A stretch of 64,000 nucleotides of DNA from the human T2T-CHM13v2.0 reference genome, Homo sapiens: the NCBI RefSeq assembly GCF_009914755.1, contig NC_060936.1; one strand, given 5' to 3'. Positions 2,299-26,010 of the stretch are shown here, in pieces. Both the position numbers and the translations under genes were made by a program. The notes beneath the pieces are model-generated. The model did not search any database. It had not been told where the DNA came from and saw nothing but the letters and a program-made list of their open reading frames with translations. Each line of letters starts with the position of its first letter. The stretch's first letter is position 1.

Positions 2299-2984
2299 AT
2301 TATTTATTCCAGTATTTTCTCTAAATAAATCTGAAACTCAAACTCTAATTACATCATAATTTTAAAAAACCTGATAGCTGTTCTAAGCTTTGGTTTCACA
2401 AACTGCTGGGCCAGTCCTAACCTTCTCATTTATGTCCTGTAACACTGCATCCCTTTATTTCCCCTAAGCACGCTGTGCCACACCACTGCACCTTTGCCCT
2501 TGCTCTTTCCTTGGCCTGGGACACCATGACCCCAGCCCTTCTCTGCCTTCCAAGCTTCAGCTCAGATGTCACAGACACTTTGAAATTTCCAGATGCTTCT
2601 ATGTACCCCTCTCAGGTCTCCCTTTGTTTTAGCACTTACTATATTGTATTTAACAGTCTCTTTATTGTCTGCCTCCTCCATTAGACTGCAAGCAATTCCT
2701 TGAAAGCAGGAATCATGTCTTTCTCATTTCTTGCTCACAGTTCCTGGCATAAAGTCTAGCATGTAGAGAGAACTCAATAAATATTGATTGGAATGAGTCG
2801 TATTGCTTAAAAGCCACGATGCTCTCACTGTCTGACCTATTTTTTTCTGCATTCAAAGCTCTTGGAAGCAACAGAAACATTTTAAGTGACTTTGAATATG
2901 AGAACTTCTGAAGATGTAATCTTTTGTTATTTCTCTTCCTTTTCAGGAACCTCTTTCAGGAGCTATAAAAGAAAGGGAGGAATC

Positions 2985-3173
2985 ATGTCCACAATTGCAG
3001 CTTTCTATGGCGGCAAGTCCATTCTCATCACGGGGGCCACAGGCTTTCTGGGCAAAGTGCTGATGGAGAAGCTGTTTCGCACCAGCCCAGACCTGAAAGT
3101 CATTTACATCCTTGTGAGGCCCAAGGCTGGCCAGACACTGCAGCAGAGGGTTTTCCAGATCCTAGACAGTAAG
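2985..3173 (+). CDS. FAR2: FAR2 first coding exon (exon starts at 2947 with 38 nt of 5'UTR); MSTIAAFYGGKSILITGATGFLGKVLMEKL...LDSK
   Basis: Acceptor ttttcag|G at 2946/2947, ATG at 2985 in aatcATGt context, Rossmann motif TGATGFLG, donor AAG|gtatgc at 3173/3174; 189 nt, phase 0. Confidence 0.97.
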
Positions 3174-4643
3174 GTATGCCTTATAGGAAAGCGTGTGTGA
3201 TGGGCAATGCCTTAGGGCAAGATGATTCACTACAATGTTCTCTTATAGTCTCATATTGCAAGTGGGGACCAGGCTACCTGCACAGGTAGAGGAAGGCAGA
3301 CAAAACAAGACAGCAACAAGCTGCTGGTGGAAATCGGTGTTTTCCCAAAGGAGGGAAAAGAGTGCTTAGTTTCAGTCCAGGGCAGGTGAGATTGTCTATG
3401 TCTGGAAACTACTAATTATCAAAATACTCAAACTCCCTGAGTGGATGCTTCAGCCTTAATATCTGCTGCAAGTTCATCTGAATTCTTCACTAATTTTCTT
3501 TTAAATTTAAGGTTGATTTCCTCCCCAAATTTTTTGGATATTCTTCTATTCTGTTCTATTCTATTGCTTAGGGAGCAGATGTGACTACTAAGTAGCCATG
3601 CAGTGATACTTTCAGTTGTCTAAACTCTACAAGGTTTAGCTGTTATATATTTTATTTATGGGAACTTTTGATATTTCTATTATCCAATAAGTTCTTCTAA
3701 GGTAAAAACATTGGAAATAAAATATTACATCTGTGAATGAGCATTTGGATATCAAACCCTCTCTCCTCTCGGAAAAAAAAGACATTATGCATATTCTCTC
3801 ATGTTTTAATTTATAAATTTCAAGGCAGTATAACCTTGGGTCTCAAACATATCTGGGTTCAAATTCTGGCTTATGAATTTGTTGTCATATCACCTCTTAA
3901 CCTTCAGATTTTAGATTTTCAAACTTTCCAATGTTTTAAATAAAAACAACAACTAATTTCATAGGAACTAAATGAGAAAATGTACATATGTTGTTCATAA
4001 TGCACTTTGGAATATAGGGGGTGACATAAGATTGGCAATAAGAAAATTCAGAGTTCCTTTTTTTACAATCTCCTTTCCAGTGTGTAGGAATGTTAACATC
4101 TATGATGCACATGTATCTGTTAGCACAGCACATTGTAGACTGCCCAGAAACACTGATGATCAAATTTATCTGCTTGCAACAGAATACGATTTTGTTACAA
4201 ACCATCATCAAGCAAATTGGAAAAGCCTCACATCTCATGGCTTGACTCAGCAGTGGGACAAAATAATCCTAACAGCTAACATTTACTGGATACTTAGTAC
4301 ATGGCACCTACTATCCAAAGGTCTTTTCACACCTTACTTCATGTATCTTTGCAATAACCCTGTGAAGTAAGAACCATTACTATTCTCATTTTATAGATGG
4401 GGAAACTGAGGCCTGAAGCTTTAACTTACCAAAGGTCTTCTACCTAGTAGAGGAAAAATTGGATTTCCAACCCTACAGCCTGACTCTAAGGCCAGCACAC
4501 TTGCTCCTGCCCCACACTGCCTTCGGGATAACTAATGGTTCTTAAAAGGCTGATATGACATAGAACCAAAACCTAGAATAAATTCCCAGATCCCTCTTCA
4601 GGCAGTTTTTCTCAGTTATCTACCCCTAATGCACTTTGTTTTC

Positions 4644-6581
4644 TTGGGGTTGATCTTCTCATGGAGTATCTTAATGGTGTTCTCTGTTTTTCCTGAATTT
4701 GCGTGTTGGCCTGTCTTGCTAGGTTGGGGAGGTTTTCCTGGATAATATCCTAAAATGTGTTTTCCAGCTTGTTTCCATTCTCCCCGTCTCCTTCTGGTAC
4801 TGCAATCAATTGTAGGTTTGGTCTTTTTATGAAGTCCCATATTTCTTGGAGGCTTTGTTCATTCCTTTTCATTCCTTTTTCTCTATTCTTGTCGGCATCT
4901 TATTTCAGTAAGGTGGTCTTTAAACTCTGATATCCTTTCTTCCACTCAGTTGATTCAGCTGCTGATAACTGTGTATGCCTTACGACATTGTTGTGCTGTG
5001 TTTTTCAGCACCATCTGGTCCTTCACGTTCCTCTCTAAACTGGTTATTCTAGTTAGCAATTCCTCTAACTTTTTATCAAGATTCTTAGCTTCTTTGCTTT
5101 AGGTTAGAACATGCTCCTTTAGCTCATCATAGTTTTATATTACTCATCTTCTGAAGCCTACTTCTGTCAATTTGTCCATCTGATCCTCCGTCCAGTTCTG
5201 CATCCTTGATGGAGAGATGTTGTGATCATTTGGAGGAGAAGAGGCACTCTGGCCTTTTGGGTTTTTGGCATTTTTTCCATTGATTCTTTCTTATCTTTGT
5301 GAGTTTGTCTAGTTTCAGTCTTTGAGGCTGCTGACCCTTGGATAGGGTTTTTGTGTGGGCCTTTTTGTTGTTGTTGTTCTTGATGTTGTTGTCGCTTTCT
5401 GCTTGTTTTTCTTTCAATGGTCAGGTTCCTCTTCTGCAGGGCTGCTGCAGTTTGCTGGGCATTCGCTTCAGGCCTTATTCATCTGATTTTCTGCTGTGCC
5501 TGGAGATGTCACTCAAAGAGGCTGGAGAGCAGCAAAGATGGGTCCCTGCTCCTTCTCCTGGGACCTCTGACCTCGAGGGGCACCAGCCTGATGCCAGTAG
5601 GATTGCCCCTGTATAGAGTGTCTGACAACCCCTGTAGGAAGGTCTCACCCTGTTGTGGCATTGGGAGTAGGACCGTTTAACGAACCACTTTGTCCCTTGG
5701 TGGAGAGGGTGTGTTTCACTGGGGGGAAACCCACTTGTCTGGGTTGCCCTGATTCCTCAGAACTACCAGGAGGAGAGGCTAAGTCTGCTGGTCCACAGAG
5801 ACTGCAGCCACCTCTCCCCTTAGGGGCTCAGGACCAGGGAGATCAGAATTCTGTTCCTAAGCCTCTGGCTAGAGTTATTGGAGATCCTGCAGGGAAGCCC
5901 CTCCCCCACCAACGAGGAAGGATGGGTGGGGGTTAGGCCTGAAGAGGCACTCTGGCCGCAGACTGCCACAGTGTGTGTGTGGCTGCCACGGTGTGTAGGG
6001 CTGTGGGGACAAGTCTTGGGACCAAGCCATCCAGCCTTCCTGGCACTAGCAGGGGAAAAGCACAGCCTGGAGCTATAGAAATGGGTGCCACCCTTCCCCT
6101 GCCCAGGGAGCTTAGCCTGTTAGGCAGTTGCCAGTCCCAGTGCTGGCTGCTGCCCCTCCCCCAAGGAGCTCAAATGGCTTAGACAGCAGGTGATGGCAGC
6201 CAGGGCTCGTCGCCCCTCTGCCCCCAGGAGTTCAGTAGGCTTAAGCAGATTTTAGCTGAGAGGCTGTAAGAATCTGCACTTTCTCAGGTTGGGATGGTAG
6301 GCCCTGGTGGCCTGGGTTCCGGAGTGGGCTCTTCTGACCCATAGGTTGCACTGTTCCATGGAAAAAGCAGTTCCCCGGGCCGGGTAGCATGCTCACTCAC
6401 CACCTCCCTTGGCTGGGGAGAGGGGACTCCCCTTCGCCGTGTGGCTCTCAGGTGGGCCACCGCACCACACTGCTCTTCCTTCTCTTGGTGGGTCACACCA
6501 GCCTTCTAGTCAATTTTGATGAGAGAACCTGGATAACTCTGTTGCTGGCGAAGGATTCACACGGTTATTGTGTTTGTTTTT
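4644..6581 (-). mobile_element. Older primate L1 (L1P-type): 5'UTR plus first part of ORF1, 3'-truncated; main segment
   Basis: Minus strand carries ORF1 remnants (WDFIKRPNL...ENTF..IIQENLPNLAR in broken frames) and a GC-rich 5'UTR; interrupted by a younger L1. Confidence 0.85.
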
Positions 6582-7087
6582 CTTTTTCTTTTTTTTAATT
6601 ATACTTTAAGTTTTAGGGTACGTGTGTGCAGGTTTGTTACATATGTATACGTGTGCCATGTTGGTGTGCTGCACCCATTAACTCGTCATTTAACATTAGG
6701 TATATCTCCTAATGCTATCCCTCCCCCCTCCCCCCACCCCACAACAGGCCCCGGTATGTGATGTTCCCCTTCCTGTGTCCATGTGTTCTCATTGTTCAGT
6801 TCCCACCTCTGAGTGAGAACATGTGGTGTTTGGTTTTTTGTCCTTGTGATAGTTTGCTGAGAATGATGGTTTCCAGCTTCATCCGTGTCCCTACAAAGGA
6901 CATGAACTCATCATTTTTTATGGCTGCCTAGTATTCCATGATGTATATGTGCCACATTTTCTTAATCCAGTCTATCATTATTGGACATTTGGGTTGGTTC
7001 CAAGTCTTTGCTATTGTGAATAGTGCCGCAATAAACATACATGTGCATGTGTCTTTATAGCAGCATGACTTATAATCCTTTGGGTAT
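6582..7087 (-). mobile_element. L1PA (about PA4-5) 3' end, 5'-truncated; left part (poly(A), 3'UTR, end of ORF2)
   Basis: T-rich tail, then AATTATACTTTAAGTTTTAGGGTAC and typical L1PA 3'UTR; TSD TGTTTGTTTTT at 6571-6581 and 8132-8142. Confidence 0.92.
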
Positions 7088-7492
7088 TGTCAGGCCTCTG
7101 AGCCCAAGCTAAGCCATCATATCCCCTGTGACCTGCACGTACACATCCAGCTGGCCGGTTCCTGCCTTAACTGATGACATTCCACCACAAAAGATGTGAA
7201 AATGGCCTGTTCCTGCCTTAACTGATGACATTGTCTTGTGAAATTCCTTCTCCTGGCTCATTCTGGCTCAAAATCTCCGCCACTGAGTACCTTGTGACCC
7301 CCACTCCTGCCCGCCAGAGAACAATCCCCCTTTTTCCTTTACCTACCCAAATCCTATAAAACGGCCCCCACCCCTATCTCCCTTCGCTGACTCTCTTTTC
7401 GGACTCAGCCCGCCTGCACCCAGGTGAAATAAACAGCCTTGTTGCTCACACAAAGCCTGTTTGGTGGTCTCCTCAAATGGACGCGCATGAAA
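7088..7492 (+). mobile_element. HERV-H LTR (LTR7 family, LTR7Y-like U3), left arm
   Basis: Starts TGTCAGGCCTCTGAGCCCAAGC, TATA at 7355-7361, AATAAA at 7428-7433, ends GGACGCGCATGAAA. Confidence 0.95.
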
Positions 7493-7590
7493 TTTGGTGC
7501 CGTGACTCGGATCGGGGGACCTCCCTTGGGAGATCAATCCCGTCCTCCTGCTCTTTGCTCCATGAGAAAGATCCACCTATGACCTCAGGT
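7493..7590 (+). mobile_element. HERV-H internal leader with tRNA-His primer-binding site (PBS, 7495-7512)
   Basis: TGGTGCCGTGACTCGGAT is the 18-nt complement of the tRNA-His 3' end; followed by leader CGGGGGACCTCCCTTGGGAGATCAATCCC...GACCTCAGGT. Confidence 0.93.
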
Positions 7591-8002
7591 TGGCACCAAA
7601 TTTCATGCGCGTCCATGTGAAGAGACCACCAAACAGGCTTTGTGTGAGCAATAAAGCTTTTAATCATCTGGGTGCAGGCGGGCTGAGTCCGAAAAGAGAG
7701 TCAGCGAAGGGAGACAGGGGTGGGGCCGTTTTATAGGATTTGGGTAGGTAAAGGAAAAAGGTGGGTTGTTCTCTGGCAGGCAGGAGTGGGGGTCACAAGG
7801 TACTCAGTGGGGGAGCTTTTGAGCCAGGATGAGCCAGGAGAAGGAATTTCACAAGACGATGTCATCAGTTAAGGCAGGAACAGGCCATTTTCACTTCTTT
7901 TGTGGTGGAATGTCATCAGTTAAGGCAGGAACCGGCCATCTGGATGTGTACGTGCAGGTCACTGGGGATATGATGGCCTAGCTTGGGGTCAGAGGCCTGA
8001 CA
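7591..8002 (-). mobile_element. Second HERV-H LTR7-family LTR (7601-8002), inverted, with PBS stub (7591-7600)
   Basis: Reverse complement reads TGTCAGGCCTCTGACCCCAAGC...GGACGCGCATGAAA TTTGGTGCCA; TSD GGTAT at 8003-8007 matches 7083-7087. Confidence 0.95.
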
Positions 8003-8007
8003 GGTAT

Positions 8008-8130
8008 ATACCCAGTAATGGGATGGCTGGGTCAAATGGTATTTCTAGTTCTAGATCCCTGAGGAATCGCCACACTGACTTCCACAATGGTTGAACTAGT
8101 TTACAGTCCCACCAACAGTGTAAAAGTGTT
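8008..8130 (-). mobile_element. Same L1PA, right part after the LTR insertion
   Basis: ATACCCAGTAATGGG continues colinearly from TTTGGGTAT at 7087; minus strand encodes [42 protein letters not shown] (ORF2 C-terminus). Confidence 0.92.
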
Positions 8131-8142
8131 ATGTTTGTTTTT

Positions 8143-8199
8143 CGATGGGAGCCTCCAATCACCCCTGCTTCTAGTAGGCCATCTTGGTCGCACCTCTGG
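8143..8199 (-). mobile_element. Extreme 5' end of the same older L1
   Basis: Minus strand GACCAAGATGGCCTACTAGAAGCAG (YY1 motif); resumes after the TSD of the nested L1. Confidence 0.8.
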
Positions 8200-9434
8200 A
8201 CTTTGTTTTCCTCACATAGTAGACGTTTCGTGTTAGTCTGGGAGCTTTGTTGCCAACTATGCATTTCTAGATAAATATTGTGGCAGAGAGTCTTGTGGTC
8301 AACCCAATCTTTACCTACTGCTTCTTTCAATGCAGTGTTTTTTATAACACGGCAACATTGCTTTTGTTCTGGAAATCGTGATTATACTCTATGTAACTTA
8401 TCTGTGAAACTGCCTTGCAAATCTCAGCACCTGTTTTCACTATTGGGCTATTTACTGTCAGCTGTTGACTTTTATGAACAGTGGTTCTCAAAGTGTGGTC
8501 CCAATATCAGCAGCATTCAAGATCACCTGAGAACTATCTGTTGTGATCAGATGGTACTTAACAGCCTGGGCTTCAGAGGCAGACAGACCTGGGTGTGAAT
8601 CTCCATACGACCAATTGTGAGTTGTGTGATAGTGGACTAGATATATACTTTGCTGAGCCTTGGTTTCTTTATCTGTAAAATGCTGTAATAATACCTTGCT
8701 TACCCAGGGAGTCTCTGCGTCTTTCTCTCTTGCCCTCAAGCCTTTCTGGATTTAAGGTATGGCTTTTACCACTATTTCCTAGGGCCTCACTTTTTACTAA
8801 GTTAGGCTGTATACTAAGTTATGCCAAAAAAAGAAGTGTTTTTTTTCCCATAAATTTTTCCCTCAAAGAGTTGTGGGAGGAAGGGAATCTGATGTGTATA
8901 ATATAGTTGAAAAACACATCTACGGTAGATCACAAACCATGTCTACATGGCCATTTTGTGGGTAACAAGAACAGATTCTATCACCTGATTATTAATGCAC
9001 AAGCCATTAGCTATGCAAATATCTACTTTCTTGTCACTATATGGAATCTGATACCTGTAAAGAGATTTTCCATGGAAAAAAATATGTGCTTGATTTTATT
9101 GCTGCGTATCCCAAAACTGAAAAGTTTTTGCTACAAAATTGTGTATGCTTCAGAATATAAGAATGCTATCGCTGATTGGCTGTGGATAAAGCTCTGTGCA
9201 AATAAGGAATTATGCAAGAAGTAGTTACTGGCCATCTATGAGATTCAAGATATTATTGCTTGTATTCCCTTTGAAATTGAAAATTCAAAATAAAGACAAG
9301 ACAGATAAAATTGTATTTTTTTATATTTTTTAAGTTATGGGGATGAGCTATGTTTGAAAGGTGAAAGAAACCTCTAGATTTTATATATATATATATGTAA
9401 AATCTCTAGATTATATATATATATGTGTGTGTAT

Positions 9435-9490
9435 GTGCCACTGCACTCCAGCCTGGGCAACAGAGTGAAACTCTGTCTCAAAAAAAAAAA
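9435..9490 (+). mobile_element. Alu 3' fragment
   Basis: GTGCCACTGCACTCCAGCCTGGGCAACAGAGTGAAACTCTGTCTC plus A tail. Confidence 0.85.
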
Positions 9491-9493
9491 TAG

Positions 9494-9811
<318 letters not shown>

Positions 9812-25834: not shown

Positions 25835-26010
25835 CTATTTGAGAAAGTCAAAGAAGTTTGTCCAAATGTGCATGAGAAGATCAGAGCTATTTATGCAGAT
25901 CTCAATCAGAATGACTTTGCCATCAGCAAAGAGGACATGCAGGAGCTTCTCTCCTGTACAAACATAATATTTCACTGTGCAGCCACTGTACGCTTTGACG
26001 ACACTCTCAG
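25835..26010 (+). CDS. FAR2: FAR2 coding exon 2 (LFEKVKEVCPNVHEKIRAIYADL...FHCAATVRFDDTL)
   Basis: tttcag|CTA acceptor, AG|gtacat donor, 176 nt; FHCAATVRF motif typical of FAR NAD-binding domains; in frame with previous exon. Confidence 0.97.

What the first reader, a model, noticed from the sequence alone, without database searches (positions are those of the whole stretch)
7083..8007. Palindromic HERV-H element: two inverted 5'-type LTR7s integrated as one unit with a single 5-bp TSD
Seen: GGTAT | LTR(+) 7088-7492 | full tRNA-His PBS and ~80 nt of leader | reverse-complement PBS stub (TGGCACCAAA) | LTR(-) 7601-8002 | GGTAT. The host L1 resumes exactly colinearly on both sides. Established: proviruses have direct LTRs, one U3 end and one U5 end, and a polypurine tract before the 3' LTR; HERV-H typically makes 5-bp TSDs. 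Here both outer ends are U3 ends (TG...CA overall), both LTRs are followed by PBS sequence, and there is no polypurine tract or gag/pol. Inference: integrase joined an aberrant reverse-transcription product made of two plus-strand strong-stop-like DNAs (U3-R-U5-PBS) fused tail to tail. Both U5 ends read TGAAA and lack the canonical CA, so a U3-U3 molecule has two canonical att sites. This may represent an overlooked class of foldback-like ERV insertions.
Basis: partly seen in the sequence, partly recalled or inferred. Interest (0 to 1): 0.9.

Follow-up and report, generated by a model that had tools for sequence, protein, structure and literature searches.

The report
Mirror-image HERV-H double-LTR insertion
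An old retrovirus remnant in an intron of FAR2 consists of two copies of the virus's end-repeat facing each other, put in as a single piece roughly 15-25 million years ago, and it shows an unusual way in which a faulty retroviral DNA copy can still be inserted into a chromosome.

Summary
Window 7088-8002 is a 915-bp palindrome. [quoted passage not shown] Then come the reversed TT plus the first 7 PBS bases and a 402-nt LTR (-). The arms are 95.4% identical (K2P 0.048). Both outer ends are U3 starts. GGTAT flanks both sides, and 5 of 5 uninterrupted L1 copies show the host L1 is colinear with exactly 5 bases duplicated.

One integrase-type insertion of a DNA with two U3 ends is the best reading. 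Two independent insertions, a later fold-back duplication and an assembly artefact all fit poorly.

The family is HERV-H/LTR7, and two published HERV-H primers match exactly. Age is about 15-25 My by clock only; no ape loci were available.

Neither arm has strong-stop length. The junction shares 0-1 nt. The TGAAA U5 end is a family trait that integrates normally.

No second case was found: among 2,012 motif-bearing LTRs, the 4 other close convergent pairs and 1 head-to-head pair are independent insertions. Eight literature searches found no precedent.

It is a real, rare variant, and so far the only one known.

The parts
6573..7082 (+). Host L1 fragment, left part (its start is approximate)
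   Evidence: Matches uninterrupted L1 copies at about 95% from window 6573-6589 up to 7087. The last 200 nt are 96.5-98% identical in 5 of 5 copies.
7083..7087 (.). Left copy of the 5-bp target-site duplication (GGTAT)
   Evidence: The flanks overlap by 5 bases in 5 of 5 L1 copies.
7088..7492 (+). Arm A: HERV-H LTR (U3-R-U5), 405 nt, starts TGTCAGG and ends TGAAA
   Evidence: Colinear with the 5' LTRs of 40 scored copies at 92-95%. The complement of the published HERV-H R-region primer matches at 7389.
7493..7512 (+). TT spacer (7493-7494) and the full 18-nt tRNA-His primer-binding site (7495-7512)
   Evidence: The 15 encoded bases equal the 3' end of 4 of 4 tRNA-His(GTG) genes. The 18-mer is printed as the HERV-H PBS primer in PMC3253121.
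7513..7590 (+). 78 nt of proviral leader, colinear with ordinary copies
   Evidence: All 11 ordinary copies continue the leader beyond this point, and the window does not.
7591..7591 (.). Junction base T of ambiguous origin
   Evidence: 2 of 11 ordinary copies have T here and 9 of 11 have C. It pairs with nothing in arm A.
7592..7600 (-). Reversed stub: the first 7 bases of the PBS plus the TT spacer
   Evidence: Reverse complement of 7493-7501.
7601..8002 (-). Arm B: the same LTR reversed, 402 nt, with its U3 start at 8002
   Evidence: The published R-region primer matches exactly at 7682.
8003..8007 (.). Right copy of the 5-bp target-site duplication (GGTAT)
8008..8130 (+). Host L1 fragment, right part, in the same orientation as the left part
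   Evidence: Window 8003-8130 matches L1 copies at 94-98%, starting 4 bases before the point where the left flank ends.

Best explanation
Core claim, which is what the confidence figure refers to: a single integrase-type insertion placed a 915-bp inverted-dimer copy of the left end of a HERV-H DNA into an L1 fragment in what is now a FAR2 intron. Both ends of the inserted DNA were U3 ends. Each was joined at the family's usual first base, and the usual 5 bases of host DNA were duplicated.

Shown: the architecture, the exact termini, the single duplication, the colinear host sequence and the family.

Inferred: how the dimer arose. My preferred route (about 0.4-0.45 on its own) is an error around the plus-strand transfer step of reverse transcription. 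One plus strand had already crossed the PBS and gone 78-79 nt into the leader. It then continued on a second plus-strand DNA that ended 7 bases into the PBS. That second strand was extended back in turn, giving a full duplex with two U3 ends. I prefer this route because both inner break points lie within about 100 nt of the PBS, where that step takes place.

Since insertion the two arms have decayed independently for roughly 15-25 My. Today the element has no shown function. If transcribed within FAR2 pre-mRNA it would fold into a hairpin of about 410 bp.
For: - Architecture and arm identity.
- Arm A plus the centre is colinear with the 5' LTR, PBS and leader of 40 scored copies. The window leaves the normal leader at 7590/7591.
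- Exact 5-base overlap of the host flanks in 5 of 5 L1 copies, both flanks in the same orientation.
- Both outer ends start at the base where family LTRs meet host DNA. All 10 sampled 5' LTRs begin with the same 7-mer or a one-base variant of it.
- A 5-bp duplication is the family norm.
- Independent insertions look different. All 5 other close LTR pairs lack PBS and leader between the LTRs or have host DNA and their own duplications.
- Arm differences are symmetric: 7 derived on A, 7 on B, 4 ambiguous, and 0 of 374 shared-derived columns. This fits two initially alike copies.
- Arm K2P of 0.048 lies inside the 0.013-0.102 range of 10 ordinary LTR pairs.
Against: - It is a single case. No second example turned up in the scanned geometries.
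- No orthologous ape locus could be examined, so a later rearrangement is excluded only by sequence logic.
- The junction shares 0-1 nt, whereas template switching by reverse transcriptase usually uses some homology (recalled). No snap-back pairing of the leader's 3' end with the PBS region is visible (my reading).
- Neither arm ends where a canonical strong-stop DNA ends.
- The 4 ambiguous differing columns sit at sites that vary within the family, so the two arms may not have been strictly identical at insertion.
- I found no printed precedent. That could mean the structure is rare, or that my search terms were poor.
Confidence: 0.75

Rival explanations
1. Same single insertion event, but the dimer was made by the host and not by reverse transcriptase. 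Either two incomplete viral DNAs each contributed a U3 end to one integration complex and the free inner ends were joined afterwards by end-joining repair, or the two fragments were ligated tail to tail before insertion.
For: The junction is blunt with 0-1 shared base and no filler, which is typical of end-joining (recalled). Integration complexes built from two ends of the same type, on separate DNA molecules, work in vitro (recalled). PMC7240061 passages say that only about 20 nt of a U3 or U5 end is needed.
Against: If breaks were random along a provirus with LTRs about 5.2-6.3 kb apart, both landing within about 100 nt of the PBS would be unlikely, roughly 3 in 10,000 by my arithmetic. Compact cases are easier to notice, so that figure is biased. 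No direct evidence separates this route from the preferred one.
Confidence: 0.3
2. A normal provirus or partial provirus was inserted, and a later replication or repair error (fold-back inverted duplication or inversion) made the second, reversed arm.
For: Fold-back inverted duplications are a known class of rearrangement (recalled). The target GGTAT+ATACC is itself a 10-nt palindrome, which invites the idea.
Against: A fold-back copy would carry the reversed left flank with it. Instead, arm B is followed by GGTAT and 123 nt more of L1 in the forward orientation, exactly colinear. A second switch back would have had to land on the very base where U3 starts. The arm divergence matches that of ordinary LTR pairs, so any such event would have had to follow insertion almost at once.
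Confidence: 0.05
3. Two independent HERV-H insertions landed close together in opposite orientation, and deletions trimmed them to the present form.
For: Close pairs of independent LTR7 insertions do exist, and more often than uniform placement predicts: 4 convergent pairs within 592 nt against 0.19 expected, and one head-to-head pair 35 nt apart.
Against: In those pairs host DNA lies between the LTRs, no PBS or leader is present (0 of 4), and LTRs have their own duplications. Here there is one duplication around the whole unit, no host DNA inside, and a perfectly colinear host. Two deletions ending exactly at element boundaries would be needed.
Confidence: 0.02
4. The palindrome is an assembly artefact, such as a chimeric fold-back read.
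For: Palindromes can arise as library or assembly artefacts (recalled). I could not look at reads or at other assemblies.
Against: The arms differ at 19 substitutions and 3 one-base gaps, split evenly between the arms. An artefactual fold-back would give identical arms. The flanks are ordinary and colinear.
Confidence: 0.02

Closest known systems
Ordinary HERV-H provirus and solo LTR7
   Same: Same LTR sequence, same tRNA-His PBS and leader, same first base at the host junction, same 5-bp duplication.
   Different: Ordinary copies have direct LTRs (one U3 end and one U5 end) about 5.2-6.3 kb apart, or a single LTR. This one has two inverted 5'-type LTRs, two U3 outer ends, and no internal genes or 3'-type LTR.
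Close pairs of independent LTR7 insertions (C13, C3, C1, C12:72.98 Mb, C16)
   Same: Two LTR7s in opposite orientation within 35-530 nt.
   Different: They have host DNA between the LTRs, no PBS or leader (0 of 4 convergent pairs), and separate duplications where readable.
5'-inverted L1 insertions ('twin priming'; recalled, no paper seen)
   Same: An inverted segment created during the insertion process itself and enclosed by one target-site duplication.
   Different: A different element class and enzyme (target-primed reverse transcription). Only part of the L1 is inverted, and the two ends are not of the same type.
In-vitro integration complexes built with two ends of the same type (recalled; PMC7240061 passages seen)
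   Same: Two like viral ends are inserted in concert with the normal spacing.
   Different: Those are test-tube reactions with short oligonucleotides. This would be a natural germ-line product.
Aberrant retroviral DNA forms with large inverted repeats, and self-primed minus-strand strong-stop DNA (recalled; search listings only)
   Same: Fold-back or inverted products of faulty reverse transcription.
   Different: The forms I recall involve R-U5 only or unintegrated circles. I know of none that carries U3 on both ends and is integrated with a duplication.
DIRS retrotransposons (abstracts only: PMC7192593, PMC3950715)
   Same: Inverted terminal repeats.
   Different: In DIRS the inverted repeats are the normal design. 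DIRS elements use a tyrosine recombinase and are unrelated in sequence. Here the inversion is an accident in a family whose normal design is direct LTRs.

Membership tests
HERV-H (LTR7) endogenous retrovirus | Primer-binding site complementary to the 3' end of tRNA-His | tested here: met
   The 15 encoded bases are identical to the 3' ends of 4 of 4 tRNA-His(GTG) genes. The 18-mer is printed as the HERV-H PBS primer in PMC3253121. That CCA is added after transcription is recalled.
HERV-H (LTR7) endogenous retrovirus | LTR homologous to the family's LTR | tested here: met
   Forty scored copies at 92-95% over LTR, PBS and leader, out of 3,273 first-look candidates. Published copy numbers imply about 3,000-3,500 LTRs. 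The published R-region primer matches both arms exactly.
HERV-H (LTR7) endogenous retrovirus | 5-bp target-site duplication | tested here: met
   GGTAT on both sides, with a 5-base flank overlap in 5 of 5 L1 copies. Family sample.
Canonical provirus | Two direct LTRs, internal genes, and a polypurine tract before the 3' LTR | tested here: not met
   The LTRs are inverted. The centre is only 90 nt of PBS plus leader.
Solo LTR (recombinational deletion product) | One LTR flanked by the duplication | tested here: not met
   There are two LTRs plus PBS and leader inside one duplication.
Two independent insertions | Each LTR has its own duplication, with host DNA between them | tested here: not met
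   No host DNA lies inside, and there is one duplication. The contrast loci L033, L054, L055, L056 and L057 do show those features.
Fold-back inverted duplication of chromosomal DNA | The flanking host sequence is inverted together with the arm | tested here: not met
   The right flank is forward-oriented L1, colinear with the left flank.
LTR7 subfamily 7d1/7d2 (Carter et al. 2022) | Lacks sequence block 2b; amplified about 14-20 Mya | tested here: inconclusive
   Both arms lack a block of about 39-42 nt in the repeated-unit region compared with the longest, youngest LTRs sampled. The paper says block 2b is absent from 7d1/2 and 7bc/o. I could not see the block coordinates (figures and supplements are not held), so the equation with 2b is a guess.
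   Arm A runs 78-79 nt beyond the PBS, and arm B stops after 7 PBS bases.

The most novel reading that the evidence does not exclude
This is the first recognised member of a rare but general class. Errors around plus-strand transfer make inverted dimers of the left end of retroviral DNA. Integrase inserts them in vivo using two U3 ends, leaving compact palindromes that repeat annotation reads as two unrelated LTR fragments. Further cases would then exist in other ERV families, in other hosts, and in long-read data on present-day proviruses.
Probability: 0.3. Interest if true: 0.7.

Novelty: new variant of a known kind. Interest (0 to 1): 0.55.

Why it matters
Retroviral insertions are expected to have one U3 end and one U5 end. 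A germ-line fossil with two U3 ends, exact termini and a normal duplication would be natural evidence of two things. First, an integration complex can use two like ends in a living cell. Second, reverse transcription (or host repair) can turn the left end of the viral DNA into an inverted dimer.

It also matters in practice. Annotation pipelines that report 'LTR7 +, HERVH-int fragment, LTR7 -' would hide such events. Counts of insertions, and LTR-pair dating, would treat them wrongly.

Lastly, a near-perfect hairpin of about 410 bp inside a FAR2 intron is the kind of structure that host sensors of double-stranded RNA are reported to bind for other inverted LTR pairs (PMC12711578 passages). Nothing here shows that this locus does so.

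Tried and rejected
Things that led nowhere or were set aside:

1. Querying the genome with the whole palindrome and with the junction. Only 40 of 3,408 and 40 of 1,736 candidates were scored. No other locus spans the junction, but this is a shallow test.
3. Pfam on three open frames, taken as they stand, just downstream of the leader in the closest relative L002. There were 0 families, so no family name came from proteins.
4. Rfam on window 6000-9500. There were 0 matches.
5. Subfamily naming. The paper text names no labelled locus that I could use, so the block comparison is only suggestive.
6. I wondered whether the point where the leader breaks off coincides with a processing signal of the family's RNA. 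The one paper I checked has no text on it. I dropped the question as unnecessary and close to a barred topic.
7. Snap-back self-priming of the leader's 3' end on the PBS region was rejected, because the bases do not pair (my reading).
9. Literature. Searches found no paper describing an inverted LTR pair inside one duplication. In one search, none of the 10 papers listed (of 228) contains FAR2. The word stem for 'inverted' occurs 0 times in PMC8912925 and in PMC12657518.
10. Supplements were closed and I did not ask for them. The per-locus tables of PMC8912925 may give this locus's subfamily and its presence in other primates.
11. Not done: spacings above 592 (tail-to-tail) or above 182 (head-to-head); arms truncated before the motifs; other ERV families; any cross-species comparison, for which no primate collection was on hand.
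Full report
**What is there.** Window 7083-8007 reads as follows:
- GGTAT at 7083-7087.
- A 405-nt LTR on the + strand (7088-7492), beginning TGTCAGG and ending TGAAA.
- TT, then an 18-nt primer-binding site (7495-7512).
- 78 nt of leader (7513-7590) and one ambiguous T (7591).
- The reverse complement of TT plus the first 7 PBS bases (7592-7600).
- The same LTR reversed (7601-8002, 402 nt).
- GGTAT again at 8003-8007.

The inverted arms (7088-7501 and 7592-8002) share 392 of 411 aligned bases (95.4%). They differ by 19 substitutions (10 transitions, 9 transversions, 3 in CpG context) and 3 one-base gaps, giving K2P 0.048. As RNA the unit folds into a near-perfect hairpin (-834 kcal/mol against -316 ± 7 for 20 shuffles, z = -76).

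**Family.** Arm A plus the centre (504 nt) is colinear over positions 1-503/504 with 40 scored copies elsewhere in this genome at 92-95% identity, out of 3,273 first-look candidates. Four points name the family:
- The 15 gene-encoded bases of the PBS occur at 250 genomic sites. Four sites that I picked on chromosome 1 are tRNA-His(GTG) genes whose 3' ends coincide with the match (4 of 4).
- A HERV-H paper prints the same 18-mer as its 'PBS-tRNAHis' primer (PMC3253121, passages).
- That paper's R-region primer matches arm B exactly at 7682, and its complement matches arm A at 7389.
- Published copy numbers are 962 proviruses plus 1,535 solo LTRs across LTR7/7b/7c/7y (PMC8912925 passages), or 1,000-1,200 LTR-flanked copies plus about 1,000 solo (PMC12228294 table). 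These imply about 3,000-3,500 LTRs, in line with my candidate counts of 3,273 and 3,408.

So this is HERV-H with an LTR7-type LTR. The label 'LTR7' itself comes from those papers and from recall; no tool here names repeats.

The subfamily is unresolved. Both arms lack a block of about 39-42 nt and a 10-nt block that the longest, youngest sampled LTRs carry. This fits the printed statement that block 2b is absent from 7d1/2 and 7bc/o (PMC8912925 section 9, read whole). I could not see the block coordinates.

**One insertion, not two.** I compared the two L1 flanks apart with five uninterrupted L1 copies. In 5 of 5 the left flank ends at a position x and the right flank begins at x-4, in the same orientation, so exactly five bases are duplicated. 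Both outer ends of the unit start at the base where family LTRs meet host DNA (10 of 10 sampled 5' LTRs).

The family's usual duplication is 5 bp:
- It is perfect in 4 of 10 sampled proviruses and 4 of 5 bases in 2 more. The other 4 were not assessable.
- Three further perfect cases appear at L033 and L057.

Independent insertions look different. I scanned for a conserved 16-mer of U5 facing its own complement. The motif occurs 2,012 times, 1,027 + 985. The scan found 5 loci at spacings 0-592: this one and four others. None of the four has PBS or leader between the LTRs (0 of 4, with the window locus as positive control). Where I read them, host DNA lies between the LTRs and they carry their own duplications.

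A mirror-image scan with U3 starts facing inward, at spacings 0-182, found one locus. It is two solo LTRs, each with its own perfect 5-bp duplication.

A fold-back duplication after insertion is excluded by the right flank. It is forward L1 beginning with GGTAT, not the reversed left flank. An assembly artefact is unlikely because the arms differ at 22 places.

**Junction.** In 11 ordinary copies the leader continues beyond the break. The base after the last colinear position is C in 9 and T in 2. The window therefore leaves the leader at 7590 or 7591 and enters the reversed PBS stub with 0-1 shared base and no filler. By my reading, the 3' end of the leader piece cannot pair with the PBS region, so simple snap-back priming is not supported.

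Neither arm has the length of a plus-strand strong-stop DNA, which would end after 18 PBS bases (established knowledge, recalled). One arm is 78-79 nt longer and the other is 11 nt shorter.

**Mechanism.** Shown: one unit, two U3 ends, exact termini, a normal duplication. From established retrovirology (recalled), exact LTR termini plus a fixed-length duplication are the signature of integrase. I therefore infer concerted insertion using two U3 ends (confidence 0.75).

How the dimer arose is inference only.
- I prefer a template switch between two plus-strand DNAs around the plus-strand transfer step (about 0.4-0.45), because both inner break points lie within about 100 nt of the PBS.
- The blunt junction fits host end-joining equally well, either before insertion or after concerted insertion of two U3 ends from separate molecules (about 0.3).

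However, it is a family trait seen in most sampled LTRs that have ordinary duplications. More diverged pairs end in TGACA. It is therefore not needed to explain this case.

**Age.** At the 18 assessable differing columns, 7 changes are derived on arm A, 7 on arm B and 4 are ambiguous. This was judged against 30 of 41 comparator LTRs; 11 were dropped because their best match was under 300 nt or too weak. No column (0 of 374) carries a state shared by both arms but rare in the family. This fits two initially alike copies decaying independently.

The arm K2P of 0.048 lies between the sixth and seventh of ten ordinary LTR pairs (0.013-0.102). With lineage rates of 1.0-1.5 x 10^-9 per site per year (recalled), the age is about 16-24 My. 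Set against the published waves of 25-40, 9-20 and 4-10 Mya (PMC8912925 passages), it falls in or near the middle wave.

Gene conversion between the arms would make this an underestimate. Two unlike templates would make it an overestimate. No primate sequence was available, so there is no orthology date. PMC8912925 cites a report that no polymorphic HERVH insertions are known in humans.

**Setting and possible effect.** The unit lies in a FAR2 intron between the exons at 2947-3173 and 25835-26010. It is masked as repeat and has no annotated functional element. It is outside FAR2-AS1, according to the gene table given with the task. The host L1 is only an internal fragment of about 640 bp.

Inverted LTR pairs in host transcripts are reported to form double-stranded or Z-RNA bound by ZBP1 (PMC12711578 passages). 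That paper does not mention LTR7 or HERVH (0 occurrences each). Any such role here is untested.

**Is it known?** Eight searches of the paper library found no description of an inverted LTR pair inside one duplication, and no paper in the listing linking FAR2 with HERVH. From memory, the nearest things are:
- L1 twin-priming inversions.
- In-vitro integration with two like ends.
- Old reports of aberrant retroviral DNAs with inverted repeats.

I saw none of those papers. Subscription journals are largely outside the library, so an earlier report cannot be excluded.

**Verdict.** This is a real, rare structural variant of a HERV-H insertion. Interest is 0.55. It would rise if further cases were found.

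Noticed in passing
L033 (C13:68419113-68419357), L054 (C3:115121210-115121511), L055 (C1:232858704-232859221), L056 (C12:72979348-72979908), L057 (C16:62469744-62469806): Independent LTR7 insertions sit close together more often than uniform placement predicts. There are 4 convergent pairs within 592 nt against 0.19 expected, plus two solo LTRs head-to-head only 35 nt apart. One possible reason is a preference for inserting near already active LTR7s. That gamma-type retroviruses favour active enhancers is recalled.
   Followed up: partly
L034-L053; L055: The 3' end of the LTR reads TGAAA in most sampled pairs but TGACA in some more diverged ones. TGACA with the TGTCA start would make a perfect 5-nt terminal inverted repeat, so the younger lineages seem to have spread with a non-CA U5 end.
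   Followed up: partly
window 7078-7092 and 8003-8012: The L1 target GGTAT+ATACC is itself a 10-nt palindrome. It is not centred on the duplicated 5 bases, and I found no role for it.
   Followed up: partly
window about 6573-7087 and 8003-8130: The host L1 is only an internal fragment of about 640 bp, with non-L1 DNA on both sides. It lacks the 3' end that L1 insertions normally keep.
   Followed up: no
L036/L037 (C1:54903605-54909330): One sampled provirus has a partial duplication of the PBS region after its 5' LTR. Its downstream LTR is followed by PBS-like sequence and not by host DNA, with no matching duplication. It may be a tandem array with more than two LTRs.
   Followed up: no
window 7152-7232 and 7859-7939: Each arm carries a 30-nt internal direct repeat at 51-nt spacing, 97% identical. 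Longer family LTRs have extra sequence in this repeated-unit region.
   Followed up: partly
window 7088-7492 versus 7601-8002: Arm A keeps an AATAAA signal in the same orientation as FAR2. Arm B has ATTAAA at the matching place. Whether either is used in FAR2 transcripts is unknown.
   Followed up: no
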